Virus record (IMG/VR): IMGVR_UViG_3300021255_003058
Span: 1-64,000 of that record
From: a virus
Taxonomy: Duplodnaviria > Caudoviricetes
Direction: 5' to 3' (one strand)
Length of the DNA stretch: 64,000 nucleotides
The position numbers were made by a program, and so were the translations under genes. The notes beneath the pieces were generated by a model that was not told where the DNA came from, searched no databases, and saw only the letters and a program-made list of their open reading frames with translations. This document shows positions 6,446 to 35,648 of this stretch, piece after piece. The first letter of the stretch is position 1, and every line of letters starts with the position of its first letter.

Positions 6446-6556
6446 AATTATTTAATTTTTATTTATTATTGAAAATTTGCAATTTTCAAATTGCAATAAT
6501 ATTTAATGGTTTGCCTCCACCAAAAGGAGTTTTGCTTAGGAACTTTAACCAAATCG

Positions 6557-6627
6557 TAGTCCCAGTAGGACTCGAACCCACCTCAGCTGGTTTAGAAGCA
6601 GCGGCACAACCTCTGTACCATGGGACC
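6557..6627 (-). tRNA. tRNA-Sup(CUA), amber suppressor
   Basis: Cloverleaf; anticodon arm GCTGC-TTCTAAA-CCAGC, loop centre CTA; same C31.C39 mismatch as tRNA-Thr at 8304. Confidence 0.75.
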
Positions 6628-7936: not shown

Positions 7937-8075
7937 ATATCAAGGAACGTTCGACAAAAGTTCATAGAGTTGGATTCGAACCAACGACCTCCAGTTTTCA
8001 AGGCTGGTGTTCTACCACTGAACTACCCTTTCAAATTATTGGGAAAGAAGTAACTCTTATCTACACCATTGACAT
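7937..8075 (-). tRNA. Circularly permuted tRNA (anticodon TGA) flanked by split intron-like element
   Basis: Order: element 3' half, (C)TTTCCCA, spacer, GAAAGGG..D..anticodon..T arm, element 5' half. Confidence 0.7.
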
Positions 8076-8385: not shown

Positions 8386-8468
8386 AATTTCATGTAACTA
8401 ACAAAGAAAGTATTATATAATATAAACCTTAACATATTGATGTAACTCTCTTTTACAACAATGAAATT
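8386..8468 (-). ncRNA. Bipartite intron-like element, permuted order, short cargo
   Basis: AATTTCAT-TGTTGTA-AAAGAGAGT-TACATC...ACTTTCTTT-GTTAGTTAC-ATGAAATT. Confidence 0.75.
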
Positions 8469-9979: not shown

Positions 9980-10591
9980 TTATGTATTTAAAAATTCTTT
10001 TATTTGATTAATCAAATTTTCTTTATCATTATTTGACATTTTTTTATATTCAGACCAACGTATTCTAATTCCTTCCCAACCTTTTGTTTTTAAATATTCT
10101 GTTCTTTCAATATCATGTTTAATCATATAATCTGAATAATGTTGTTCACCATCAATTTCTACATATTTCATTAAATTTTCATTATAAAAATCTAATTCAT
10201 ATCTATCAATTTGTTTATGATATTGTAATGGAATATTTTCTTTAACAAACAATTCTTCAAAATATTTTTCTGGATAACTTTGTTTAGAAGAATGATTAAT
10301 TATAAATCCAACTTTATTTGGATGCTCGTTTAAATATTTTTTTCTTGAATTTGATATTTTATTTTTTACTTCATCAGTATGATGTTTTCCTTTAAATGTT
10401 TCTCCGCATTTTTTTCTTGTTTCATCAGAAACAATAATTTCTCTACCTTCTTCTTTAGCTTTTGTAAATTGATTACTATTTTTTGAACGTAATAAATATA
10501 CTGGAGTTAATTTATTAGGATTTTTTGAACATCTCATTTCATGTTGAATTAAATGTTTACATTCCTTTCCACAATATTTACAATTAAACAT
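9980..10591 (-). CDS. Free-standing homing endonuclease-like protein (Zn finger, NUMOD3, DUF559/Vsr-like nuclease)
   Basis: CKYCGKEC, KGKHHTDEVKNKIS, YELDF..VEIDGEQH; start moved to MFNCKYC. Confidence 0.75.
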   Translation of the reverse strand: MFNCKYCGKECKHLIQHEMRCSKNPNKLTPVYLLRSKNSNQFTKAKEEGREIIVSDETRKKCGETFKGKHHTDEVKNKISNSRKKYLNEHPNKVGFIINHSSKQSYPEKYFEELFVKENIPLQYHKQIDRYELDFYNENLMKYVEIDGEQHYSDYMIKHDIERTEYLKTKGWEGIRIRWSEYKKMSNNDKENLINQIKEFLNT

Positions 10592-10609
10592 ATATTCAAA
10601 ATATTTTTG

Positions 10610-10680
10610 TGACCCCACTGGGAATCGGACCCAGGTCACGTGATTAAAAGTCACGGGCTTTACCACTAAGCTATGAGGTC
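10610..10680 (-). tRNA. tRNA-Lys(TTT)
   Basis: Cloverleaf, loop CTTTTAA. Confidence 0.9.
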
Positions 10681-10968: not shown

Positions 10969-11135
10969 TTGGTATAGAATGCTTCTGAGTCATCTATACC
11001 ACAATAAAATACTGCTTCCTTCATAACTCTTAACTTTTAAATTTATTAATAAAACTCGGACTTACACTGTTTTAACCATTTCTAAACTAAGTAGTACTAC
11101 TTCTCCAAGGATTCGAACCTTGGTTCTGATGCCAG

Positions 11136-11220
11136 TGGGGTGGGAGGGATTCGAACCCCCTGCGTTTCATAGTAACGGATTTACAGTCCGCCGCCCTTCC
11201 ACCATCAGAGCAGCCACCCC
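11136..11220 (-). tRNA. tRNA-Tyr(GTA)
   Basis: Cloverleaf with long variable arm. Confidence 0.9.
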
Positions 11221-19231: not shown

Positions 19232-20143
19232 TTATTTTTCATATAATACTTCCCAAAATTTATTTCCATATTTATTAATAACATATTCAAATACTTCAGT
19301 TAAATCTTCTTTAAATAAAACTTTAATATCTGGATTTTGCTCAGATTTTATTTGAGCAACTTTATCATAATATCCTTTTATTTCAATTATTTCATTATCA
19401 TTAATAATAAAATCTGGAAAATATTTACAAACTTTTTTATTTAATTTATAATATCTTATTTCATCGCACCTTTTAATTTTTATATTATGTTCTAAACAAT
19501 ATACCAAATAAGCTAATTCCCATGAACTATCACAATGAATACCTTTATAGTTTCCATGATGATGATTTTTAATAGAATTTGGATGATAACCACCAAAATT
19601 ATTTTTCTTTGCGTTATCGCTTAACTTAGTATGTTTACCAATTTTTAAGCATTCATTTGAACAATATTTTAATTTCTTATTATAATATTTTTTACCACAA
19701 ATAGGACATATATTATAAGGCGTCCAATCTGGATTTACTGTCCATCGATTATTAATATTTAAATTATTAATTCTTTTCTTACCCTTTATCCATGATGATT
19801 TACCCTTTAAAGAATCAGCTATTTTCTTATTCTTTTCTTCTAAATTTGTATGTAATGATGATAACTTATGAGCACATGAAGAACAACACGTTTTTCTATA
19901 ATCACCTGCATTAAATTGTTTTTGTCTTATTTGTAATGTATATTCTTTACCACAAGCTAAACATATTAATTTATACTCTTTTAGAGGATTATTTTTTTCA
20001 AATTTTTCTTTTTTTCGTAAAGAAAAATCTTTTTGATATGAATTAGGATTTTTACTACAATGTATAATATGAGCCCCTAATGATTGACCAGAGTTAAATT
20101 CTTTATTACAAAATTTACAAATATGTTTTTTATTATCTTCCAT
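19232..20143 (-). CDS. Free-standing homing endonuclease-like protein (Zn fingers, PD-(D/E)XK nuclease)
   Basis: CxxC motifs; DSSWELAY..YFPDF..IEIKG. Confidence 0.75.
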   Translation of the reverse strand: MEDNKKHICKFCNKEFNSGQSLGAHIIHCSKNPNSYQKDFSLRKKEKFEKNNPLKEYKLICLACGKEYTLQIRQKQFNAGDYRKTCCSSCAHKLSSLHTNLEEKNKKIADSLKGKSSWIKGKKRINNLNINNRWTVNPDWTPYNICPICGKKYYNKKLKYCSNECLKIGKHTKLSDNAKKNNFGGYHPNSIKNHHHGNYKGIHCDSSWELAYLVYCLEHNIKIKRCDEIRYYKLNKKVCKYFPDFIINDNEIIEIKGYYDKVAQIKSEQNPDIKVLFKEDLTEVFEYVINKYGNKFWEVLYEK

Positions 20144-21320: not shown

Positions 21321-21324
21321 ATAT

Positions 21325-21403
21325 ATTCATGTAACATTCGAGAAAAGTAAATTTGGAATAATCTTGGCAAGATTTGAAGTATCTCTTCTCTACAACAATG
21401 AAT
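21325..21403 (-). ncRNA. Bipartite intron-like element, permuted order, short hairpin cargo
   Basis: ATTCAT-TGTTGTA-GAGAAGAGA-TACTTC...ACTTTTCTC-GAATGTTAC-ATGAAT. Confidence 0.75.
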
Positions 21404-21406
21404 TTG

Positions 21407-22202: not shown

Positions 22203-22280
22203 AATTCCTGTAATAAGCGAATAAAGTATTTTATTAAGATCCAAATTCTTTGAAGTAACTCTATTCTTCAACAAGGAATT
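22203..22280 (-). ncRNA. Bipartite intron-like element, permuted order, short cargo
   Basis: AATTCCT-TGTTGAA-GAATAGAGT-TACTTC...ACTTTATTC-GCTTATTAC-AGGAATT. Confidence 0.75.
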
Positions 22281-22428: not shown

Positions 22429-23370
22429 TTATAAACTTGTATTATTATAATAAATTAAAAACTTATTAATCTTTTCTTCCATTAATTGTTTACCATGTTC
22501 TGAATTAATTTCATTCCATGGTATTCTATAAACTTCTATTCCTTTAGATTTTATGAATTCATCTCTGATTTTATCAGATTCTTTTCGCTCTTTATATAAA
22601 TGTTGTTTACCATCTATCTCTAAATCAATCTTTCTATCATTTATTTCAATATAAAAATCTAAAAAATATCTTTCACCACTTCCTTTGTTACCATATTCTA
22701 ATACATATTCACGTACATATTGAATATTGTTATTATCTAAAACTTGTTTCCAAAATTTTTCTGCATAACTTATAATATTACGAGATTTCCAACCTTGAAA
22801 TGTTCCATTTTGAATTTCTTTTTTTCTTTGTAATGAAGATTGTTTTGATATTGATTTTTGTCTACATTCATCAGAACAATATTTTTGAAATTTATTACTT
22901 TCAAATTCTTTATTACAATATTTACATATACATTTTCGAACACCATAAACATATTCTCCATATTGGTTAGCTAATTTATATTTATGTTGTTTAATACCTT
23001 TTAAAAATGTATTAGATATTTTTCTTTTTGTTTCTTCTGTTCGTTTACCTTTTTTCTTATTTCCTAATGCTGAACCACAAGATTGATTACAACATTTTGC
23101 AAATCTTTTTTTAAATGGTAATTTCTTTCCACAATATTCACAATATTTAGGATTTAAATCATAATCTCGTTTTTGAATTTCTAGCCAATGATTAGATAAA
23201 TTCTTTTTAGAAATTTGTTCTTTAGATTCAATTCCTATTTGTGAAAAATACATAAGAATATCTTTATCTATGTATCCTCCATTTTGATTAGTGCGAATAT
23301 TTAGTTTTTTACAAATTTCTGATTTTGACTTAGAATAATCATAAATATTTTGAATTTCTTCTTTAGTCAT
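22429..23370 (-). CDS. Free-standing homing endonuclease-like protein (Zn fingers, DUF559/Vsr-like nuclease)
   Basis: CxxC motifs; YFLDF..LEIDGKQH..RIPW. Confidence 0.75.
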   Translation of the reverse strand: MTKEEIQNIYDYSKSKSEICKKLNIRTNQNGGYIDKDILMYFSQIGIESKEQISKKNLSNHWLEIQKRDYDLNPKYCEYCGKKLPFKKRFAKCCNQSCGSALGNKKKGKRTEETKRKISNTFLKGIKQHKYKLANQYGEYVYGVRKCICKYCNKEFESNKFQKYCSDECRQKSISKQSSLQRKKEIQNGTFQGWKSRNIISYAEKFWKQVLDNNNIQYVREYVLEYGNKGSGERYFLDFYIEINDRKIDLEIDGKQHLYKERKESDKIRDEFIKSKGIEVYRIPWNEINSEHGKQLMEEKINKFLIYYNNTSL

Positions 23371-24028: not shown

Positions 24029-24066
24029 AAATTATAACCATTATAAAATGATTAAATTTTATTATA

Positions 24067-24202
24067 ATTATCGGAACAGCTATAAAAGTATTATTATGAA
24101 ACTTTCTCTCGGATTCGAACCGAGGAATCAATTCTGGAAAAATTGCATTAAACCACTTAATTAAAAAAGTAATCGAAGTAACTCTTATATACACCAGATA
24201 AT
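24067..24202 (-). tRNA. tRNA-Gly(TCC) (24100-24170) wholly enclosed by permuted intron-like element
   Basis: ATTATC-TGGTGTA-TATAAGAGT-TACTTC, tRNA, ACTTTTATA-GCTGTTCC-GATAAT. Confidence 0.75.
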
Positions 24203-25063
24203 TTATATCTTATTATTTTTCTTTATGTAAGGTTTATATATATTAAAAAAATCAATATAATATTTTTTTAATGCTCTAAATATACATTTATCAAATAATT
24301 CATTTTTTTCTTTTAAATAATTTATTAATTTTTTTGACCAACCAAATTTTGAAAAATCTATATTTGATTCTTTACATGCAGATTCTAAAATTTGTTTCTT
24401 TTTATTATTATCTTTTTCTTTTTTAATTTTTCTATTAATTTTATCAGTATACTGTTGATCTTTATATTTAGAAAAATCTTCATATAGTATTCTCCAAAAT
24501 TCTTTGCCATATTTATTTATAACATATTCTAAATAAGGTTTTATTAAAATTTCATCAATAACTTTAATATTTGGAAATTGTTTTTCCTTTTCTAAAGATT
24601 TTTTACTTTTTCGCCCTTTAATTTCAATTAAACCTTCATCTGTTATAAAATCAGGAATATAAATATGTTCTTCATTATTCCATATATATTTGAATTTTTT
24701 ATTACATCTTTCAATATATAAATTATGTTCAATATAATAAACTAAAAATGCTAATTCCCAAGTACTATCACAATGAATATTATTATACCAACCTTGTTTA
24801 CTATTACCATGTTTTTTATTAAACTTCCAATTAGTATTACCTTTCATTGATTTTGAAATTTTAATTCTTCTTTCAATTTCCTTTTGTGGATCTTTACATT
24901 TTCCACATGATATACCTTGTCTAGATTTTTTTATATGTTTTTTATATTCATCATTAATTCCATATACCCACCCTTCATTTAGGTATTTGTTAATATCATT
25001 AGGATTAACATAAATACATATATTATTTTTATTCATCCATTTATATCCTTTGCTAGTACTCAT
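24203..25063 (-). CDS. Free-standing homing endonuclease-like protein (PD-(D/E)XK)
   Basis: DSTWELAF..YIPDF..IEIKG; paralogous to 19232-20143. Confidence 0.75.
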   Translation of the reverse strand: MSTSKGYKWMNKNNICIYVNPNDINKYLNEGWVYGINDEYKKHIKKSRQGISCGKCKDPQKEIERRIKISKSMKGNTNWKFNKKHGNSKQGWYNNIHCDSTWELAFLVYYIEHNLYIERCNKKFKYIWNNEEHIYIPDFITDEGLIEIKGRKSKKSLEKEKQFPNIKVIDEILIKPYLEYVINKYGKEFWRILYEDFSKYKDQQYTDKINRKIKKEKDNNKKKQILESACKESNIDFSKFGWSKKLINYLKEKNELFDKCIFRALKKYYIDFFNIYKPYIKKNNKI

Positions 25064-25140
25064 ATATTAATATAGAAATATTTATAATTAAAAATAAACA
25101 TTTTTTATTAAATCAGATTACTACCTTAATAATATTTATG

Positions 25141-25225
25141 ACTCCGGTGTTGGATTCGAACCAACGCGAGGTTACCCTAATGGATTTGCAGTCCATCCCA
25201 ATCGACCAGACTCTAGCAACCGGAG
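25141..25225 (-). tRNA. tRNA-Cys(GCA) with long variable arm
   Basis: Cloverleaf, U73. Confidence 0.85.
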
Positions 25226-25231
25226 ATTAAA

Positions 25232-25395
25232 ATTTACGGAATAATCGAATAAAGAATAATTATAAAAGGACCAGCGCGTTTACCAGTTTCACCACCGCGG
25301 TACATAATGTACATGGGCCGGACTAGAACCGACAAGGAACTTACTTCCACCGGTTTTACAAGCTTATGAAGTAACTCTATTCTTCACCAGTAAAT
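25232..25395 (-). tRNA. Circularly permuted class-II tRNA-like gene (GTA?) split in the anticodon loop, flanked by split element
   Basis: Element 3' half, ..TTGTAAA-ACCGG-V arm-T arm-acceptor, linker, acceptor-D arm-CTGGT, element 5' half; acceptor stem imperfect. Confidence 0.65.
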
Positions 25396-25425: not shown

Positions 25426-25512
25426 CGGAGAGACAGGGACTCGAACCCTGAAGCCGTTACTAGCGACCTGCCAATTTTCAAGATTGGTTCCTCATCCAGC
25501 CGGATCCTCTCC
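25426..25512 (-). tRNA. tRNA-Ser(TGA)
   Basis: Cloverleaf with long variable arm. Confidence 0.9.
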
Positions 25513-25605
25513 ATAACTTCCTTCCTCAACAGTTTATCTATACATCTATGAAGGACATCTGATTCTAATTATCTTCTCGACAACCAGTGACTGTATATTA
25601 TTTTG

Positions 25606-26827: not shown

Positions 26828-29800
26828 ATGTTCAAACCTTTATTAAGAACATTACCAACGTTATCTGGTAATTTTACAATTGCATGTAAACTTAGAGAAT
26901 TCAATAAAGAAAATAATAATGAATATTCTACATATGTTAGATTAGCAAATATGATTCCATTACAAAATTTCATGTCAAACAAAAACATTGAAATTAATTT
27001 ATTGGATGGAAAATATGAATATGATGTAGCAAAATATTACTATTACTATTCAAATGTATTTTATAAGCATAATTACACATATAATAAAAATAATTATGCA
27101 ATTTTAGATTTAGACTCTATATATAATTACAATAATGATTCTCGTAATAAAGATTATGAATTTGGTTGTAAACGTATTCAATTTAGTCAGCATGGAAGTC
27201 AATTTAATTTCTATGCTCCAATATATATAGATAATATTAATGACTTACCAGAATATTTCTGTATTAATATTGTTATTAATGACCATTTAACTAAAAAAAT
27301 AAAAATATATATAAATAAAGATAATAAAAGAAATTATCTTAAAAATTACTTAGTAAGATATTTAAAACAAATAGATGAACGAGTAATATTTTGTTTACCA
27401 GAATCTTTACAAGCAACATATTTTGGTATTGATATTAGAAATGGTGGTATAAGCCAATATAAAGATAATGTATTTGGTAGTTTATATATTAATCAAAAGA
27501 CAATTAATAACTTTGATTATACTATATGCAAAGGATTTGAAAGAAATAATATTATAATGAGACAAATCATTCCTTTAAGTTTTTCATTTAATATTAATGA
27601 TTTGTTTAATAATTATGAACGTGATTTCTTTACAGGAGCAAAAATGCATATAAATGGAAATTATTTTACTAAAGGAAATACTGTATATGATATGTATGAT
27701 TTTGATATTAACTATACAAATAGTTTTAAGAATTTCAAAAAATATAATGAATATACAGGAGCATATGATTTCGTTATTGGAAAAGACTCAAATAATAAAT
27801 CAATAAATATAATGGATGTTGGGTTCCCTGCATTAAATGAATCCAAATATATTAAATATGCATACACTAATAAAATAACACCAATGTATTGTAAATTTAA
27901 AATGATGTTATCTGATGATAGTAATCCTTATATAACAAATATTAATTTTGCATATTCATATAACCAATATCCAAATCAGAAATATGGAGAATTTCCTACA
28001 ATGTTTAAAGGATTATTTCCAAAAATCATTATTGATAATAATGATTTAAAACTTCCTATTGGAGCATCATTAGATAAATATTATAAAGTAATAAAGAACA
28101 CCGGTAATAAAGTTATTATAAATACTAACAATATTGACAAATATAATAAATTAATGTCTAACTATTGTTCATCATGGTATAAAATAAATAATAATTTTGA
28201 TACTGATAATTTAGATGATTTCTTTAATAATGAAAATTGGTCAGACGTTAAATATGGATATTCATATTTTAATGGAATATTATATAATTTGAAAGATATT
28301 GGTAAAATTGATAAATTTGGTGTATTCTGTGATGTAAAATTAAATTATTTAAGTGAATCTAATATATATAATAACTTAATTAAAGGTAATATAATTTTAA
28401 GTGGAGAAACATTGTCATCTGGTAAAAAATTCTTTAATTATAATCAATCATATGATATGAAAATATATGATAATGATTATAATATAGAATATTTTAATAA
28501 AATTGTTGATATATCATTAAATAATTTTTCAGAAGATAATGTTAAAATTAATCAAAATATGATTAAAGATATCTATGGAACATATATAATTGAAGAAAAT
28601 TTTATCGAAGAAAATATGTTCTATAAAATTGATGATATATTTAATCAATTTAAAATTTATTTATCTATACAAGAATTAAAAGATAAATTAATAGAAAAAC
28701 AAATAAATGGATTTGAATTATTAGAAGCATACAATAATATAAATTTCTTTAATGAAAAATATGACAGTATATATGGAGAAACTGTTAAACAATTTATGCT
28801 TATTGGAAAAACATATGACACACAAGAATATCAAGAAAAATATAATTGGCTTTATAATTTATTATATTATACTACACAGTTAACGAAAGAAAAATATAAA
28901 GTTAGTGATAATTATAATTCAATATATTATAATGAAGATATTAATGGTAAATTGTGTATGTTTATCAAAAACAGATTTATTCATAAAACAGATTTATTGA
29001 ATATATTAAAAGAATATAATGAAGACTTATTAAAGTTTGGTGATCTGAATCAACTTGTAAAAATTTGTTTTAATTATTTTGTAGAAAACGAAAGAAACAT
29101 ATTTCATAATATTAGTAATATTGATTCTCCAATTTTAGATGAAAATGGGAAAACAATTAGATTGTCATTAGATAATTGGCTTATTAATCAAATTGGAACT
29201 GATTTATTTAATGAATTAAAAACTCATTATGCTTATTCGCAATTTAGAACAATTTTATTACAAATGATTACTGAATATAATAGTGATTCAAGTATAACAC
29301 CAGATAAAATTAATCCTAATGAAACAATAAAAGGGCATAATTTAATATTTCTATCAAATTATTTATCATTATTGCAATCATATAAATTTGAAATACTTGG
29401 TAATAAAAATGGAATTGATATAAAAGATTATTTTATAAAAAATGAATCAAATGAAAAGGACATATATGTTGATCCATATAATTTAGAAAATTATATAGAT
29501 TTATATAATAAAAATCATAATGATAAAATATCAAAAAAATTTACATATAGAAAAATATTTAGTAATATAATTGATAAAAATCATTTAATAGAATTTTGTC
29601 AAAAACTTAAGAATTTTGATAATGATTTAAATCCAATAATATCTAACGTAAATTTATTGGATATTATATATGTAAAAGAACGTTGCTGGTATATTGAAAA
29701 TAATGTAATTGATATTAAAGATAGATATATTTCATTATATGATTATCTTTATAATAAATTCGTTGAAATTGGTAATAAAGAACGTATTAAATATAAATCA

Positions 29801-32344
29801 TATACAAGTAATGAAAATAAAGAAGTTCAAAATCAATTAGAAAATAGATATTTAACATGTCTTGAAGATTTTCTAAAATATTTCATATATTTACATAAAT
29901 CAAATAATAATGGCTTAATATTACAATGGTTAGAAAATTCATTATCTGATACAAAATCAGAATCAAATAAATTTATATTACATATTGAATTATTAGATAC
30001 AAATATTTCAGAATCATGGAATATTGAATTAGATTTATGTGTTTATAAAAATATGATATTGTTTGATAATAACTTAAGAAAATTAATACAAAATAATTTA
30101 TTCTTATATTTATATGTCAATGATAAAATGTCTTTAGAAAATTTAAGTATGTGGCCTATTATTTCATCAAATGATATTAATAATTCAAAATATATATATA
30201 AAGACACTGATGATTTTTTGACACCATTATTTACAAATATTTATTTTAATGAAGATGATTTTAATAATTTAAAGCAAATGATATCTAAAGAAAAAATAAA
30301 TATAAACAACAAATATGTATTGTCAAGTAATAAATATTTTAAAGAAATAAATGTTGATGAAACATTTAACACGTTAATTATAAATAACGATAAATCTATA
30401 TACAATATTATTGATAACATTAATAATTTATATAATATTTTGAATAATGACATATTAGATTTATTAAATCAAATTAAAAATTTATTATCAGATTGTTTTA
30501 ATTTCACATATACTTTATATGATCAAAATGCTGAACACTATTATTTGCAAAAAATATTATTAGAATCATATATTAATAATTTAGAAAACGAAAATAAGCT
30601 AAATAACGAAATATTTGATAATAATTATAAAGACATATTTATTGAATTAAATATTATTCAAGATCAATCTTTATTATTTACTGATATTAAAGATGATATA
30701 AATATATTGCAACGAGTAAATGATTCTTTAGTTAAATATCAATATCAATATAATATATATACATATTTAAAAAAATTAAATGTATATAACATATTTAATA
30801 TGATTGATAACATTATCAATGATTTACTATCATATAAATTAAACAATATTGATTTATTGATTAAAAATGATGCAAATATAAAACATATTATAAATTTATT
30901 ACAAAATATTAATAATATTTATAATGAACAAGTTTTATCATTGTTTAATAATGTTAAAAAATTACTTAATAATTTATATAATACTAATAGTTATTTTAAA
31001 TCATCAATAAGTAATTTTAACATAAAAGGATTACATATTAATACATTATTATCAAATAAAGATATATTTATTGAACAATTAAGAAATACAACATTTAGTG
31101 TAAATTGGATTAATGAAATTTCAAATATTAATTCATATAATAACATTGAAAAATTAACATTTAAAGATAAATGGAATGAATATTGTTTAGATAATGATAT
31201 ATATACTGAAGATATTAATTCTGATAATTATATTGAGCAAATTAATTTAATTATTGATTATCTTAAAAAATATTATAATGATTTATATTATAAAATAATT
31301 GAAAGCAAAGGCATAATTTTATATTCAATAAGTAACATATTAAATATTGATTATAAACCTATTTTATGTGATAAATTTAATTATAATGATTTATATAAAA
31401 TATATACATATGATTATAATGGCCAGACATATGCATTTTATTTTATTAAAATAAATGTTGATAATACTAATAATTCATTTAATGTTCTTAATGAATTTAA
31501 TCTTAATGTAAAATTTGATTCAATTGATGGTGTATTAATTAATGATGCAAAGTTTAATGATTTCTTTAATAAAATATTTTATTTATTAGAGCCTTTTTTA
31601 AAATTAAATATATTTAATGAATTCACAAAAAATATAAATACTATCATATATCCACACGAGTCAGAAATTAATATTGAATATATAGGATCTATTACAAATA
31701 ATGATACAACAAAAATAAGATATAGCAATTTAACAGATGATGGCGTATTATATGATAATATTGTTAAAATGTCAAAATCTAAAAAAATTAAATTATTAAG
31801 ATACTTTAATTATATTACACCTTTGTTAGTTAAAACAAATGTAATAAATGACACATGGGAATTACAATTTATAGACAATAATAATATTAGTATATATAAT
31901 AAAAAATATAATATATTAAGTAAAGAAAACATTAATATTTATAAATATAATGGTATTAAATATTATACTGGAGTATATTCAACTTCTAATGAATTATTTA
32001 TGAAAAACAATAACATTGAAATTCCAGATATAATAGAACAATATGAATATAAGCATTTTAATGATAATGTTGTGTATAATTTACCAGAAGAAATATATAT
32101 AAAAATTGATAAATATTATACATATGATGAAATTTCTTTATTTAAAGAAAATGATATGAATATAATTGAAGAAAAAAAGAATATATTATTAAAATATTTT
32201 AATAATTTGGGATTAGATTTTAAAAATATTATTTTATTTTTATTTAATAAGTATAATAGTAATATGACTATTGAGCCTATTCATTTAAGAGCAAATAAAA
32301 ACGAAAAACTTTATAAAGTTTCATATAAATTTAACTTAATATAA
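26828..32344 (+). CDS. Giant hypothetical protein (possibly structural)
   Basis: 1838-aa uninterrupted Asn/Ile/Tyr-rich ORF. Confidence 0.8.
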   Translation: MFKPLLRTLPTLSGNFTIACKLREFNKENNNEYSTYVRLANMIPLQNFMSNKNIEINLLDGKYEYDVAKYYYYYSNVFYKHNYTYNKNNYAILDLDSIYNYNNDSRNKDYEFGCKRIQFSQHGSQFNFYAPIYIDNINDLPEYFCINIVINDHLTKKIKIYINKDNKRNYLKNYLVRYLKQIDERVIFCLPESLQATYFGIDIRNGGISQYKDNVFGSLYINQKTINNFDYTICKGFERNNIIMRQIIPLSFSFNINDLFNNYERDFFTGAKMHINGNYFTKGNTVYDMYDFDINYTNSFKNFKKYNEYTGAYDFVIGKDSNNKSINIMDVGFPALNESKYIKYAYTNKITPMYCKFKMMLSDDSNPYITNINFAYSYNQYPNQKYGEFPTMFKGLFPKIIIDNNDLKLPIGASLDKYYKVIKNTGNKVIINTNNIDKYNKLMSNYCSSWYKINNNFDTDNLDDFFNNENWSDVKYGYSYFNGILYNLKDIGKIDKFGVFCDVKLNYLSESNIYNNLIKGNIILSGETLSSGKKFFNYNQSYDMKIYDNDYNIEYFNKIVDISLNNFSEDNVKINQNMIKDIYGTYIIEENFIEENMFYKIDDIFNQFKIYLSIQELKDKLIEKQINGFELLEAYNNINFFNEKYDSIYGETVKQFMLIGKTYDTQEYQEKYNWLYNLLYYTTQLTKEKYKVSDNYNSIYYNEDINGKLCMFIKNRFIHKTDLLNILKEYNEDLLKFGDLNQLVKICFNYFVENERNIFHNISNIDSPILDENGKTIRLSLDNWLINQIGTDLFNELKTHYAYSQFRTILLQMITEYNSDSSITPDKINPNETIKGHNLIFLSNYLSLLQSYKFEILGNKNGIDIKDYFIKNESNEKDIYVDPYNLENYIDLYNKNHNDKISKKFTYRKIFSNIIDKNHLIEFCQKLKNFDNDLNPIISNVNLLDIIYVKERCWYIENNVIDIKDRYISLYDYLYNKFVEIGNKERIKYKSYTSNENKEVQNQLENRYLTCLEDFLKYFIYLHKSNNNGLILQWLENSLSDTKSESNKFILHIELLDTNISESWNIELDLCVYKNMILFDNNLRKLIQNNLFLYLYVNDKMSLENLSMWPIISSNDINNSKYIYKDTDDFLTPLFTNIYFNEDDFNNLKQMISKEKININNKYVLSSNKYFKEINVDETFNTLIINNDKSIYNIIDNINNLYNILNNDILDLLNQIKNLLSDCFNFTYTLYDQNAEHYYLQKILLESYINNLENENKLNNEIFDNNYKDIFIELNIIQDQSLLFTDIKDDINILQRVNDSLVKYQYQYNIYTYLKKLNVYNIFNMIDNIINDLLSYKLNNIDLLIKNDANIKHIINLLQNINNIYNEQVLSLFNNVKKLLNNLYNTNSYFKSSISNFNIKGLHINTLLSNKDIFIEQLRNTTFSVNWINEISNINSYNNIEKLTFKDKWNEYCLDNDIYTEDINSDNYIEQINLIIDYLKKYYNDLYYKIIESKGIILYSISNILNIDYKPILCDKFNYNDLYKIYTYDYNGQTYAFYFIKINVDNTNNSFNVLNEFNLNVKFDSIDGVLINDAKFNDFFNKIFYLLEPFLKLNIFNEFTKNINTIIYPHESEINIEYIGSITNNDTTKIRYSNLTDDGVLYDNIVKMSKSKKIKLLRYFNYITPLLVKTNVINDTWELQFIDNNNISIYNKKYNILSKENINIYKYNGIKYYTGVYSTSNELFMKNNNIEIPDIIEQYEYKHFNDNVVYNLPEEIYIKIDKYYTYDEISLFKENDMNIIEEKKNILLKYFNNLGLDFKNIILFLFNKYNSNMTIEPIHLRANKNEKLYKVSYKFNLI

Positions 32345-32345
32345 A

Positions 32346-35300
32346 ATGATAAAAAATGTAAATTTATTACAAAATCCTGTAGAATATGATAAATATTTAG
32401 AAGAATATCTTATACAAGCGTTGGCTAATCTTGGACAACGTATAGGTATTAAAGGTGATGGCATATCATATGAATATTTTACTTTTAGTGATTTATTAGG
32501 AGATTCAATATCATATTATAATGCATCAAAAATAGGATTTGTTCAATATAAAAAATCAATTGATTCAGATAAATATGCTGCTAATTTTGGTATATGTGAT
32601 TATGATCCTGAAACTGGTTCATTATTCAATTATAATAAATTATCTGAAAGTTTAGATATTAATGATATTTTATATTTTCCAAATGATTTGACTTTCGATA
32701 TTACATTAGGTGGTATTGAAAAATATTCAAAAAATAGTATTTGTATTAATGATGGAAATGATATAACATTTATGCTTGTTGGAAAACTAATAGGTACAAA
32801 TGATGATGAAGAACTTAATTCAATATTATATTATTATAAATTTGATATTAATTCTAATTTATTAAAATATGGGGCTAAAATATATCATGATAGTGATGAT
32901 TGGTTTCATTTAATAACATTTGTTAATAAAACATATAAAAATAATAATTATAAGTCTAGTGCATTATCAAATGAATATGAAATGAATATACATATGTTTA
33001 ATGCGCAAAAATTAAAAGAATTAGATTTATTACTTAAAACAACACAAAGCAAATATTATAATAGTTTTATATCATTATTTAAATTTAGTAATTATAAATC
33101 AACAAATGAAATACCATTATCATTAATAAGACCAGAATTTAATGATATTAATGAATTATTAAATTATAGTGATGAAGAGTCATATCATTTTTCAACAAAT
33201 TCACCAATTGCTTTAATACTTAATTATTTACCAAATTCATTATATGATAAAAGAACTATTGATTTAATATATAATACAAGCAATAATGAATTTTTCTCTA
33301 TTGATTCAAATGAATTTGAAGATATAATATCAATGTTCAATTCTGAATATGGAATTAACTTAAATGAAGAATTAGTTCAATTAAATGAAGATTGCAATAA
33401 TTTATATTTTAATATCTTCAATTATTATAATGAAAAATATTATTTAGAAACAAAAGCTGGTTTTATTAAAAGAATATTGTCTAAATTATATGAAAAGATT
33501 TCTGATTACAACTATAATGATGAATTAATGTTATATATACCTTTAGATTATCAATTTCATTATATTTGCAATAGTAATAATAGTATGTATATATATTATT
33601 CTACTAATACATATGTTACATTTGTTAATTTAGACTCTATTAATACAAGTAATTTTTGGGATAATAATACAAATTTGATTTTTGATTATAATAGTGATGT
33701 AAGTAAAGTCAAAACATATAATTTTGAAATTAGTTATAATCGTAGTGATGATAAATTAATTAACTCTGTTGTAATCAAAGATATATTTACGATGCCTTAC
33801 ATTAATGCAAATAGTAATTGGAGTATTAATGATAAAGATACAAAAATTCAAGCAATTGGCAAAGACGCAGGTAATCCAAATATTATATTGATATATAATA
33901 AAGACAAGCAAAATCTTGGTTTAGATAATAGTTTCTATTTACTTAATGCAATATCAAACTATAAAGAAATATTAGGATCAACATTCAATAAGCAAGAGTT
34001 TAATGTTAATCCCGCATTATTTGAAAATACATATACAACAGATGTTAAATGTTGTTCTTATATTCCAGAAATTAATAAGAATAATTTTGAATACTTTAGA
34101 AATAGTATGATTATTAGTATTTCAGATTTAGATTGTTTATCTGATGAATCTATGAAAACATACTATAAAGGATCGTATATATTAACAATGTGGTGTGTTA
34201 AAGAAACATCAAATACTGATTATAAGTTTGAATGTATTAATCATATAAATACTAATTATGCATTAGCTTTAGGTTCAACAGTCAATCTAATTAATGCAAC
34301 TAGTGATTCATCTGTTGAAAACTTAAATGATCAAGATTTAATACTATTAAAAGCAATAATAACAGAATTAGCTCAAAATAGATTATCAATCAATGAAAAT
34401 AATTGGTTAATTATAAAGAATAAGCAATCAGAAGAATATTCTGCAATAAATGAAAACATTGGACAATATTTAAATGATCTTAATGCTATTATCCAATATA
34501 ATGATACTGTGAAACTAAATAATAATCATATACAACATTCACAGACAAATAAGTATATTAAATCATTAACTAATATTAAAACAACAAATTCTCTTTATCC
34601 TAAATATTATAAGACACAAACAACAATTTCTACTGTTAAACAAGATGTAATAAAAGAATTAAGAAATGTAGGAACAACAATTAATAATGTAAGAACATCT
34701 AAAGTTTATGTTGATGGATCACAAGTGCAAAATGTTGAATCATTAATACAAAATATTGAAAACAAATATGGTGAACAAAAAAGTATAATTGAACACGAAA
34801 TACAAATTGAGCAAATAGAAAAATCTAAATATAATTATAATGAATTTATATTTAATGAAAATATTCCTACATTAGATTTTGCTGAAATATTCAATAGAAA
34901 CTTTAATGTATTAAATAGATTAAATGTTGTTTCATTAGATAATAATGGAACTATTTATAATGCATATATTGGAACATCTTACGATGAACAAAATAAATCA
35001 ACATTACATATTGGTACAACAAATACTAATATTAATATTGGTAGTGAAACATTAGTTGATGAATTAGAAAAAACTAAATTTAATACGCATAATAATATTT
35101 CTATTGATTTTGAAAATATTATATTAAATGCAACTAAACAAGTAATAACAAAACAAAATATATTATATCAGGCAACTTTTAATAATATAACATATAATAT
35201 ATTATCAATTCCTTTAATTGGTATTTGTAGTGCTATGTATTCATCATCATTATTTACTACTGAAAATATTAGTTTATCAAATACATTATATATTAATGAT

Positions 35301-35648
35301 ATACCACAAATATCTAATTATAAATTATCTCTATATAATTTATTTAATACATATTTTAATGTTAACTTACCTAATAACGAAAAAAATATATCATTAAATA
35401 TATATAATATTAAAGATATTATATCATCAGTAAATCCTCAGTATAATGAAGATATGTATTTTATTTCTACGAAATATAATAACAATGATAGATTACATAT
35501 TTTATTTAGTAATAATATAATACAAAGTAATAATGTTGTTAATAGTAATGTTATATATGCTGGATATAAATTAAATATAATGTATTATGTTTCATATGAT
35601 AATAATGATAAGATAAGTAAGTATAATATTTATCTTTCTATCAGCTAA
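32346..35648 (+). CDS. Large hypothetical protein (possibly structural)
   Basis: 1100-aa ORF coupled to the previous gene. Confidence 0.8.
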   Translation: MIKNVNLLQNPVEYDKYLEEYLIQALANLGQRIGIKGDGISYEYFTFSDLLGDSISYYNASKIGFVQYKKSIDSDKYAANFGICDYDPETGSLFNYNKLSESLDINDILYFPNDLTFDITLGGIEKYSKNSICINDGNDITFMLVGKLIGTNDDEELNSILYYYKFDINSNLLKYGAKIYHDSDDWFHLITFVNKTYKNNNYKSSALSNEYEMNIHMFNAQKLKELDLLLKTTQSKYYNSFISLFKFSNYKSTNEIPLSLIRPEFNDINELLNYSDEESYHFSTNSPIALILNYLPNSLYDKRTIDLIYNTSNNEFFSIDSNEFEDIISMFNSEYGINLNEELVQLNEDCNNLYFNIFNYYNEKYYLETKAGFIKRILSKLYEKISDYNYNDELMLYIPLDYQFHYICNSNNSMYIYYSTNTYVTFVNLDSINTSNFWDNNTNLIFDYNSDVSKVKTYNFEISYNRSDDKLINSVVIKDIFTMPYINANSNWSINDKDTKIQAIGKDAGNPNIILIYNKDKQNLGLDNSFYLLNAISNYKEILGSTFNKQEFNVNPALFENTYTTDVKCCSYIPEINKNNFEYFRNSMIISISDLDCLSDESMKTYYKGSYILTMWCVKETSNTDYKFECINHINTNYALALGSTVNLINATSDSSVENLNDQDLILLKAIITELAQNRLSINENNWLIIKNKQSEEYSAINENIGQYLNDLNAIIQYNDTVKLNNNHIQHSQTNKYIKSLTNIKTTNSLYPKYYKTQTTISTVKQDVIKELRNVGTTINNVRTSKVYVDGSQVQNVESLIQNIENKYGEQKSIIEHEIQIEQIEKSKYNYNEFIFNENIPTLDFAEIFNRNFNVLNRLNVVSLDNNGTIYNAYIGTSYDEQNKSTLHIGTTNTNINIGSETLVDELEKTKFNTHNNISIDFENIILNATKQVITKQNILYQATFNNITYNILSIPLIGICSAMYSSSLFTTENISLSNTLYINDIPQISNYKLSLYNLFNTYFNVNLPNNEKNISLNIYNIKDIISSVNPQYNEDMYFISTKYNNNDRLHILFSNNIIQSNNVVNSNVIYAGYKLNIMYYVSYDNNDKISKYNIYLSIS

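What the first reader, a model, noticed from the sequence alone, without database searches (positions are those of the whole stretch)
25232..25395. Permuted class-II tRNA split in the anticodon loop by the same element
The 3' half (TTGTAAA-ACCGG, variable arm, T arm, acceptor) precedes the 5' half (acceptor, D arm, CTGGT), and both are enclosed by halves B and A. This third break point shows permutation is not tied to one site. The spliced loop would be over-long (about 14 nt) and the acceptor imperfect, so it may be a circular tRNA mimic or degenerate.
Basis: partly seen in the sequence, partly recalled or inferred. Interest (0 to 1): 0.72.

Follow-up and report, generated by a model that had tools for sequence, protein, structure and literature searches.

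The report
Phage Y RNA mimicking leucine tRNA
The back-to-front tRNA is real and conserved in related giant phages, but it is most likely a Y RNA, a known kind of small RNA with a permuted tRNA look-alike on a stem that docks the Ro60 protein, not a tRNA gene awaiting splicing.

Summary
Observation confirmed. On the minus strand at 25396-25231, the variable arm, T arm and 3' acceptor strand come before the 5' acceptor strand and D arm. Two flanking halves pair around them.

The order stem, V, T, closed acceptor, D, stem is the published layout of YrlA-type Y RNAs, described as resembling circularly permuted tRNAs.

- **Conservation:** orthologs exist in related phage records at 67-93% identity, and 16 of 40 proposed pairs covary.
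- **Not a decoder:** the anticodon-like triplet drifts from GTA to GCA to nothing. The body matches tRNA-Leu, not tRNA-Tyr.
- **Ro60 link:** the 5' flank motif occurs in 58 IMG/VR stretches. Of 47 records searched, 35 carry a Ro60 (TROVE) gene, always on the same strand, and within 2 kb in 33.
- **Bridge to YrlA:** my model of this element hits a Ro60-adjacent RNA that Rfam YrlA also scores, though below threshold.

Caveats: Rfam does not score the element itself. No Ro60 gene lies in this 44%-complete record, although a same-clade phage has one. Ro60 binding is inferred.

Earlier reports of this scan reached the Y-RNA reading for other copies in this genome. I checked the Ro60 association and the YrlA link with my own searches.

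Verdict: a new member of a known kind.

The parts
25390..25395 (-). Outer stem, 5' strand (AUUUAC). It pairs with 25232-25237.
   Evidence: 100% paired in 5 orthologs, and 5 of the 8 pairs in helix 1 change on both sides. Coordinates.
25383..25389 (-). Bulged U, the 2-bp element GG, and the loop UGAA. Together they read U-GGUGAAG, the likely counterpart of the YrlA Ro60 motif GNCGAAN0-1G.
   Evidence: GG/CC covaries with AG/CU in G035, G012 and G024. The motif comparison with Chen et al. 2014 is by eye and shows one mismatch (C to U).
25375..25382 (-). Conserved helix, 5' strand (GAAUAGAG). It pairs with 25247-25254.
   Evidence: 100% paired, and 4 of 8 pairs change on both sides. The register was fixed by G012, where AAUUGGAG pairs with CUUCAAUU.
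25362..25374 (-). Conserved unpaired UUACUUC plus a variable spacer on the 5' side.
   Evidence: AGAGTTACTTC recurs 14 times in the window's tRNA array. It is part of the motif linked to Ro60 genes.
25350..25361 (-). Anticodon-loop-like UUGUAAA and the 3' strand of the anticodon stem (ACCGG).
   Evidence: The stem ACCGG/CUGGU covaries: UUGGU/ACCGA in G035 and UCAAU/AUUGA in G012. The loop triplet is GTA here, GCA in G019 and absent in G035 and G024.
25334..25349 (-). Variable arm (stem GGAA/UUCC with loop GUAAG).
   Evidence: This corresponds to the 'V' stem-loop of YrlA.
25317..25333 (-). T arm, GUCGG-UUCUAGU-CCGGC.
   Evidence: 100% paired with compensatory changes. The stretch spanning the end of the variable arm and most of the T arm (element nt 60-78, window 25319-25337) matches a canonical tRNA-Leu(UAA) at 18 of 19 nt. 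Position 57 is U here but G or A in the orthologs.
25295..25316 (-). Closed acceptor stem-loop: CCAUGUA, the loop CAUUAUGU, then ACCGCGG. In this copy it can refold as the hairpin GUACA-UUA-UGUAC.
   Evidence: 4 of 7 pairs here, 6 of 7 in G019, G035 and G012, and 7 of 7 in G024.
25276..25294 (-). U8-G9 and the D arm (GUG-AAACUGGUAAA-CGC) with G18 G19, A14 and A21.
   Evidence: The stem covaries (U-G, U-A, C-G). The stretch from the 5' acceptor strand into the D arm (element nt 97-119, window 25278-25300) matches a canonical tRNA-Leu(UAA) at 22 of 23 nt.
25270..25275 (-). N26 and the 5' strand of the anticodon stem (CUGGU).
25255..25269 (-). Variable spacer on the 3' side (CCUUUUAUAAUUAUU).
   Evidence: Its length varies from 6 to 15 nt among orthologs. 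Its drawn pairing with UUGUAAA is no better than shuffled spacers.
25232..25254 (-). 3' half of the Y stem: helix strand CUUUAUUC, internal loop GAUUAUU, 2-bp CC, and outer stem GUAAAU.
   Evidence: It matches the consensus ACUCUnnUCGCUUGUUCC found opposite the 5' motif in Ro60-adjacent RNAs. Covariation.

Best explanation
The locus encodes a YrlA-type Y RNA of about 165 nt. It is cut out of the polycistronic tRNA-array transcript.

Its two ends pair into a bulged stem built from these parts:
- a 6-bp outer helix;
- a bulged U;
- 2 bp;
- a 4 x 7 internal loop;
- an 8-bp conserved helix followed by the unpaired UUACUUC.

This stem is the docking site for the ring protein Ro60, supplied by the phage or the host. 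The stem continues into the anticodon stem of a tRNA-shaped domain with a variable arm, a T arm, a closed acceptor hairpin and a D arm. That domain is derived from a class-II tRNA-Leu.

Because the acceptor is closed and the anticodon is not conserved, the domain is neither charged nor read on the ribosome. Like other YrlA RNAs, it probably presents a tRNA elbow to a tRNA-binding partner and so tethers that partner, or an exonuclease such as PNPase, to Ro60.

What is shown: the anatomy, its conservation and covariation, and the genomic association of the stem motif with Ro60 genes. What is inferred: Ro60 binding, the processing route and the effector.
For: 1. The order stem, V, T, closed acceptor, D, stem is the layout described for YrlA. 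[quoted passage not shown]

2. Orthologs of the whole element exist in G019 (93% identity), G035 and G012 (77%) and G024/G028 (67%). They sit in syntenic positions, about 6-7 kb from a shared 1100-aa gene that is 41-73% identical.

3. Covariation:
- On a MAFFT alignment, 91.5% of cells are paired against 40-47% in slid controls, and 16 of 40 pairs change on both sides.
- On a 10-sequence model-based alignment, 93.6% are paired and 33 of 40 pairs covary.

4. The 5' flank motif TGKTGWAGANNAGAGTTACTTC is found in 58 IMG/VR stretches.
- 35 of the 47 records searched carry a TROVE gene, including 18 of the 20 that are at least 90% complete.
- The motif is on the same strand as the gene in 35 of 35 records, and within 2 kb in 33 of 35.
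- 23 of 39 bacterial loci with the motif also hold a Ro60 gene.

5. The Ro60-adjacent RNAs carrying this motif show the same arrangement: B, T arm, closed acceptor, D arm, A.
- Model R1, built only from this element's orthologs, hits one of them (L040:5000-5133) at 61.9 bits.
- Rfam YrlA scores the same RNA full length at 38.9 bits, E = 2.8e-7.

6. A same-clade phage, G028 (98% complete), encodes a 482-aa protein with TROVE and vWA domains. It matches Thermus phage phiLo Ro60 structures 9L5Y and 9KOP.

7. tRNA tertiary-contact bases are kept: U8, A14, G18 G19, A21, T54 Psi55 C56, A58, and an A15:U48 pair (read directly from the sequence).
Against: - Rfam RF02553 and RF00019 give no hit on the element, even at E <= 10.
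- The Ro60 motif is GGUGAAG, not GNCGAA.
- No TROVE or RtcB gene lies in the 116-kb record, which is 44% complete.
- G035, at 83% complete, also shows no TROVE gene.
- In G028 and G040 the Ro60 gene has no such RNA within 5 kb, so the usual YrlA-Ro60 adjacency is lost in this clade.
- The single-sequence folding energy is ordinary (z = -0.32).
- This copy has a weakened acceptor and a pyrimidine at T-loop position 57, so it may be drifting.
- Many of the roughly 100-kb Ro60-positive records are close relatives of one another, so the 35 records are not 35 independent events.
- No expression or binding data exist.
Confidence: 0.78

Rival explanations
1. It is a true circularly permuted tRNA gene. 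The flanks would be removed, the ends ligated into a circle, and the acceptor loop opened by RNase P or RNase Z, giving a working class-II tRNA with anticodon GUA.
For: - Direct joining gives a 7-nt loop UUGUAAA and a class-II cloverleaf.
- Orthologs have 6-7 bp acceptors closed by 8-9 nt loops.
- M. smegmatis YrlA with a 7-bp acceptor is cut by RNase P, and Wang et al. raise the possibility of such processing.
Against: - The triplet is GTA here, GCA in the 93%-identical ortholog, and missing in G035 and G024.
- The body is Leu-like, not Tyr-like.
- The acceptor has only 4 of 7 pairs here.
- No bulge-helix-bulge site is present, and no splicing endonuclease is known in bacteria.
- The phage already has a normal tRNA-Tyr(GTA) at 11135-11220.
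- No RtcB gene is in the record.
Confidence: 0.04
2. It is debris: two tRNA-Leu fragments left by deletion within a tandem tRNA pair, with no function of their own, sitting next to a repeated array motif.
For: - Both halves match a tRNA-Leu closely.
- This copy has a damaged acceptor top and an unusual T loop.
- Folding energy is ordinary.
- A dimeric-tRNA origin has been proposed for YrlA itself.
Against: The whole architecture is kept in phages whose proteins are only 41-51% identical. Compensatory changes occur in the outer stem, conserved helix, anticodon stem, T, D and acceptor stems. Debris would not covary.
Confidence: 0.08
3. The flanking stem is a processing or punctuation signal of the tRNA array, for example an RNase III or RNase E site, or a small mobile hairpin. 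It would not be a Ro60 handle, and the tRNA-like part would be a passenger.
For: - About a dozen copies lie between or inside tRNA genes of the array.
- Homing-endonuclease-like ORFs are interspersed.
- No Ro60 gene is nearby in this clade.
Against: The same motif sits within 2 kb of Ro60 genes, on the same strand, in 33 of 35 phage records, and beside Ro60 in 23 of 39 bacterial loci. Many of those have no large tRNA array. Rfam YrlA aligns to one of these RNAs.
Confidence: 0.1

Closest known systems
YrlA-type Y RNAs of bacteria and phages (Rfam RF02553; Chen et al. 2014, PMC4201824; Wang et al. 2018, bioRxiv 10.1101/312249)
   Same: - The 5' and 3' ends form the Ro60-binding stem.
- The stem runs into the anticodon stem of a tRNA-like domain ordered V, T, closed acceptor, D.
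- tRNA elbow nucleotides are kept.
- The stem motif is genomically linked to Ro60 genes.
   Different: - Rfam RF02553 does not score it.
- The motif is GGUGAAG instead of GNCGAA.
- It lies inside a phage tRNA array, far from any Ro60 gene.
- Both halves of the body are still nearly identical to a canonical tRNA-Leu, including acceptor-derived sequence.
- This copy still carries a 7-nt anticodon-loop-like stretch.
Circularly permuted tRNA genes of Cyanidioschyzon merolae, other algae and an archaeon (Soma 2007; Maruyama 2010; Chan 2011, as cited)
   Same: - The 3' half is encoded upstream of the 5' half.
- The acceptor is initially a closed loop.
- The ends pair to extend the anticodon stem.
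   Different: Those genes carry a bulge-helix-bulge site cut by the splicing endonuclease, and they mature into decoding tRNAs with a conserved anticodon. Here there is no such site, the anticodon drifts, and the host is bacterial.
Thermus phage phiLo Yrl1 and Yrl2 with phage Ro60 (PMC12135203)
   Same: Phage-encoded Y RNA-like stems with a large internal loop. There they bind a phage Ro60 and host PNPase. The Ro60 of the same-clade phage G028 matches the phiLo protein.
   Different: The phiLo RNAs lie next to the Ro60 gene and carry a CGAA motif. No tRNA-Leu-like domain is described for them.
tRNA genes interrupted by group I introns in the anticodon loop (from general knowledge)
   Same: An element sits at the anticodon side of a tRNA body.
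   Different: The flanks are about 35 nt each with no ribozyme core, and the exon order is reversed.

Membership tests
YrlA-type Y RNA | The 5' and 3' ends pair into a stem that carries the Ro60 motif GNCGAAN0-1G near the 5' end. | tested here: inconclusive
   The stem is present and covaries. The motif reads GGUGAAG, with one mismatch, and this comparison is by eye.
YrlA-type Y RNA | A tRNA-like domain in the order V, T, acceptor-like stem-loop, D, with conserved T-loop and D-loop nucleotides. | tested here: met
   UUC..A in the T loop, GG in the D loop, U8, A14, A21 and A15:U48 are all present.
YrlA-type Y RNA | The acceptor is closed by a loop, with no free CCA end and no functional anticodon loop. 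| tested here: met
   The acceptor is closed by an 8-nt loop. The anticodon-like triplet is not conserved among orthologs.
YrlA-type Y RNA | Encoded within about 4 kb of a Ro60 gene and on the same strand. | tested here: not met
   No TROVE gene in the 116-kb record, which is 44% complete. The criterion is met for the stem motif elsewhere: 33 of 35 records within 2 kb and 35 of 35 on the same strand.
YrlA-type Y RNA | Scores at or above the Rfam RF02553 gathering score of 69 bits. | tested here: not met
   No hit at E <= 10. A Ro60-adjacent relative of the module scores 38.9 bits.
YrlA-type Y RNA | Bound by Ro60 in vivo or in vitro. | not testable with these tools
   This needs a pull-down or a gel shift.
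Circularly permuted tRNA gene | The 3' half lies upstream of the 5' half on one strand. | tested here: met
Circularly permuted tRNA gene | A bulge-helix-bulge site (two 3-nt bulges around a 4-bp helix) at the junction to be cut. | tested here: not met
   By inspection of the covarying structure, the junction has a variable spacer, and the stem has a 1-nt bulge and a 4 x 7 loop.
Circularly permuted tRNA gene | The mature product has a conserved anticodon and a pairable 7-bp acceptor. | tested here: not met
   The triplet is GTA, GCA or absent among orthologs, and the acceptor has 4 of 7 pairs in this copy.

The most novel reading that the evidence does not exclude
In this phage clade the Ro60 stem may be a portable handle grafted onto tRNA bodies at different sites:
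- at the anticodon side here;
- around a whole tRNA-Gly at 24066-24203;
- at the acceptor side at 7937-8075;
- inside D loops and an anticodon stem elsewhere.

About a dozen tRNA-shaped RNAs in the array would then be marked for Ro60. That would be an undescribed layer of tRNA-array quality control, or of decoy defence against host tRNA-cutting nucleases. At the extreme, some copies might be converted into working tRNAs.
Probability: 0.12. Interest if true: 0.75.

Novelty: new member of a known kind. Interest (0 to 1): 0.4.

Why it matters
It removes a tempting false lead. There is no evidence here for back-spliced permuted tRNA genes in a phage.

It adds a divergent Y RNA subfamily that Rfam's YrlA model misses. 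This subfamily is common next to Ro60 genes in uncultured phages and in Acidobacteriota.

This copy is also useful for evolution. Its V/T half and its D half both still match a canonical tRNA-Leu almost base for base, and the acceptor is still recognisable in relatives. That is what the published 'dimeric tRNA origin' model of Y RNAs predicts, and it makes the model testable.

Finally, it shows a phage clade that keeps its Y RNAs in the tRNA array rather than beside Ro60.

Tried and rejected
- **ARAGORN on rejoined halves.** It calls a tRNA only at lowered threshold and only when padding bases supply the acceptor. The 'Tyr' identity was rejected because the body matches tRNA-Leu and the triplet is not conserved.
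- **Rfam.** Neither the 3-kb nor the 200-nt search gave a tRNA, YrlA or Y_RNA hit on the element.
- **Folding energy.** The z-score is uninformative at -0.32.
- **Pairing of UUGUAAA with UUUAUAA on the 3' side.** This looked attractive, but it is no better than shuffled spacers and is not kept in orthologs.
- **First helix register.** GAAGAAUAG/UUAUUCUUU was replaced by GAAUAGAG/CUUUAUUC after G012 and G035 showed compensatory changes only in the second register.
- **Genes in the own record.** No TROVE or RtcB gene was found.
- **Y modules next to Ro60 in the clade.** None was found within 5 kb of the Ro60 gene in G028 or G040.
- **Local transcription signals.** No minus-strand promoter-like or terminator-like site lies between 25100 and 25560.
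- **Group I or permuted intron-exon reading.** Rejected because each flank is only about 35 nt.

Full report
**Setting.** The window is part of a 116-kb IMG/VR virus record judged 44% complete. It is AT-rich, at 15-38% GC. About 55 tRNA genes lie on the minus strand between 6.5 and 26.3 kb, interspersed with homing-endonuclease-like ORFs. The finding sits between a class-II tRNA-Ser(UGA)-like gene at 25426-25513 and a tRNA-Cys at 25140-25225. No promoter-like or terminator-like site lies on the minus strand next to it. It is therefore probably part of the array transcript.

**Observation.** Read on the minus strand, the element runs in this order:
- a 5' flank;
- UUGUAAA-ACCGG;
- a variable arm;
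- a T arm;
- a 3' acceptor strand, an 8-nt loop, and a 5' acceptor strand;
- U8-G9 and a D arm;
- CUGGU;
- a 3' flank.

So the 3' half of a class-II tRNA does precede the 5' half. Rejoining the halves gives a cloverleaf with a normal 7-nt loop. ARAGORN accepts it only at lowered threshold and with borrowed acceptor bases. The acceptor has 4 of 7 pairs in this copy. The sequence can instead form the hairpin GUACA-UUA-UGUAC.

**The flanks.** The 5' flank contains AGAGTTACTTC, which recurs 14 times in the array. From the orthologs, the two flanks pair as follows:
- a 6-bp outer stem;
- a bulged U;
- 2 bp;
- a 4 x 7 internal loop;
- an 8-bp helix, GAAUAGAG with CUUUAUUC;
- then an unpaired, conserved UUACUUC.

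**Relatives.** BLAST of the element against records sharing the motif found the whole element in G019 (93% identity), G035 and G012 (77%) and G024/G028 (67%). It again lies directly after a tRNA 3' end. These phages belong to the same clade: the window's 1100-aa ORF is 73%, 51% and 41% identical in G019, G024/G028 and G035. It lies 6-7 kb from the element in both the window and G028.

On a plain MAFFT alignment, the proposed 40 pairs are 91.5% paired, against 40-47% when partners are slid. Sixteen pairs change on both sides, against 1-3 in the slid controls. A covariance model built from this alignment found further full-length members: L056:124-268, L011:11866-12019 and L035:754-907. On ten sequences, pairing is 93.6% and 33 of 40 pairs covary. 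That second alignment is fitted to the model, so it leans toward the structure.

**Not a decoding tRNA.**
- The anticodon-like triplet is GTA here, GCA in the 93%-identical G019 copy, and absent in G035 and G024. The spacers around it vary from 13 to 44 nt on one side and from 6 to 15 nt on the other.
- A scan for the conserved D-arm stretch found canonical tRNA-Leu(UAA) genes in unrelated viral contigs.
- The element matches one such gene at 22 of 23 nt (5' acceptor strand into the D arm) and 18 of 19 nt (end of the variable arm into the T arm). In G012 the matches are 25 of 25 and 21 of 27.
- The body is thus Leu-like. The phage has an ordinary tRNA-Tyr elsewhere.

**What it is.**

Chen et al. 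2014 describe YrlA as Ro60 motif, V, T, acceptor-like stem-loop, D. Wang et al. [quoted passage not shown] That is exactly this anatomy.

The 5' flank motif occurs in 58 IMG/VR stretches. Of 47 records that could be searched, 35 have a TROVE gene, including 18 of the 20 that are at least 90% complete. The motif is on the gene's strand in all 35 and within 2 kb in 33. In bacterial genomes, mostly Acidobacteriota, 23 of 39 motif loci also hold a Ro60 gene.

The Ro60-adjacent RNAs come in two forms. Some are simple hairpins. Others show the same arrangement: B, T arm, closed acceptor, D arm, A, with the 3' consensus ACUCUnnUCGCUUGUUCC. My model hits one of them (L040:5000-5133) at 61.9 bits. Rfam YrlA aligns to the same RNA end to end at 38.9 bits, E = 2.8e-7, below its gathering score of 69.

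**Limits.**
- Rfam gives nothing on the window's own element.
- No TROVE or RtcB gene is in the record.
- The same-clade phage G028 (98% complete) does encode a 482-aa protein with TROVE and vWA domains, which matches the Thermus phage phiLo Ro60 structures. However, neither G028 nor G040 has a module within 5 kb of that gene. In this clade the Y RNAs therefore live in the tRNA array.
- Many Ro60-positive records are near-duplicates, so the counts overstate independence.
- Single-sequence folding energy is ordinary.
- A drawn pairing of the anticodon-like stretch with the 3' spacer is not supported.
- This copy's weakened acceptor and its U at T-loop position 57 may mean relaxed constraint.

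**Mechanism, with what is inferred marked.** The RNA would be released when RNase P cuts at the 5' end of the downstream tRNA-Cys and the upstream tRNA's 3' end is trimmed. This is inferred from position alone. The bulged stem would bind Ro60, which is inferred from the genomic association and the YrlA homology. The tRNA-Leu-shaped domain would offer a tRNA elbow to a partner protein, or help tether an exonuclease, as shown for other Y RNAs. This is by analogy.

**Novelty.** Phage Y RNAs and Ro60 are known. I searched the paper library once and found no description of Y RNAs embedded in phage tRNA arrays. This is a new, divergent member of a known kind. Its tRNA-Leu ancestry is unusually legible, which fits the dimeric-tRNA origin model. 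Other reports of this scan reached the Y-RNA reading for other copies in the same genome.

Noticed in passing
window 24066-24203 (-): The same Y stem encloses a complete, normal-order tRNA-Gly(TCC). ARAGORN places it at 24100-24170, Rfam tRNA scores it 51.1 bits, and model R1 scores the whole region 44.3 bits. This is a different topology from the permuted one.
   Followed up: partly
window 22203-22280, 21324-21404 and 8387-8467 (-): Simple hairpin copies of the Y stem with no tRNA-like payload lie upstream of tRNA genes (22203-22280 ends only a few nt before a tRNA-Glu 5' end). R1 scores them 47-57 bits. They resemble the hairpin RNAs next to Ro60 genes in L006 and L005.
   Followed up: partly
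window 25426-25513 (-): A class-II tRNA-like gene with anticodon loop CUUGAAA (UGA, Ser). ARAGORN misses it. Rfam scores it only as tRNA-Sec at 32.2 bits, below threshold. Its D arm is unusual.
   Followed up: no
window 6556-6627 (-): A tRNA with a CTA anticodon, called 'Pyl' by ARAGORN, that would read TAG. This may hint at amber suppression or stop-codon recoding in this phage.
   Followed up: no
window 9980-10666, 19232-20143, 22429-23370 and 24203-25063 (-): ORFs inside the tRNA array with DUF559/Vsr-like nuclease, NUMOD3 or C2H2 zinc-finger matches. They are likely homing endonucleases. 19398-19549 and 24636-24787 are 72% identical repeats.
   Followed up: no
L088 (G028:125000-135000) and L089 (G040:54000-63000): The Ro60 genes of same-clade phages have no Y-stem module and no tRNA within about 5 kb. 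This differs from most other phages carrying the motif.
   Followed up: yes
L090-L128 (bacterial contigs): The exact 22-nt motif also occurs in 39 bacterial contigs, mostly Acidobacteriota (Terriglobia, 'Candidatus Angelobacter'). In 23 of them a Ro60 gene lies in the same 8-kb locus.
   Followed up: partly
window 26828-35648 (+): Two very large ORFs of 1838 and 1100 aa, at 15-20% GC, have no Pfam match. The second is conserved across the clade at 31-73% identity.
   Followed up: partly
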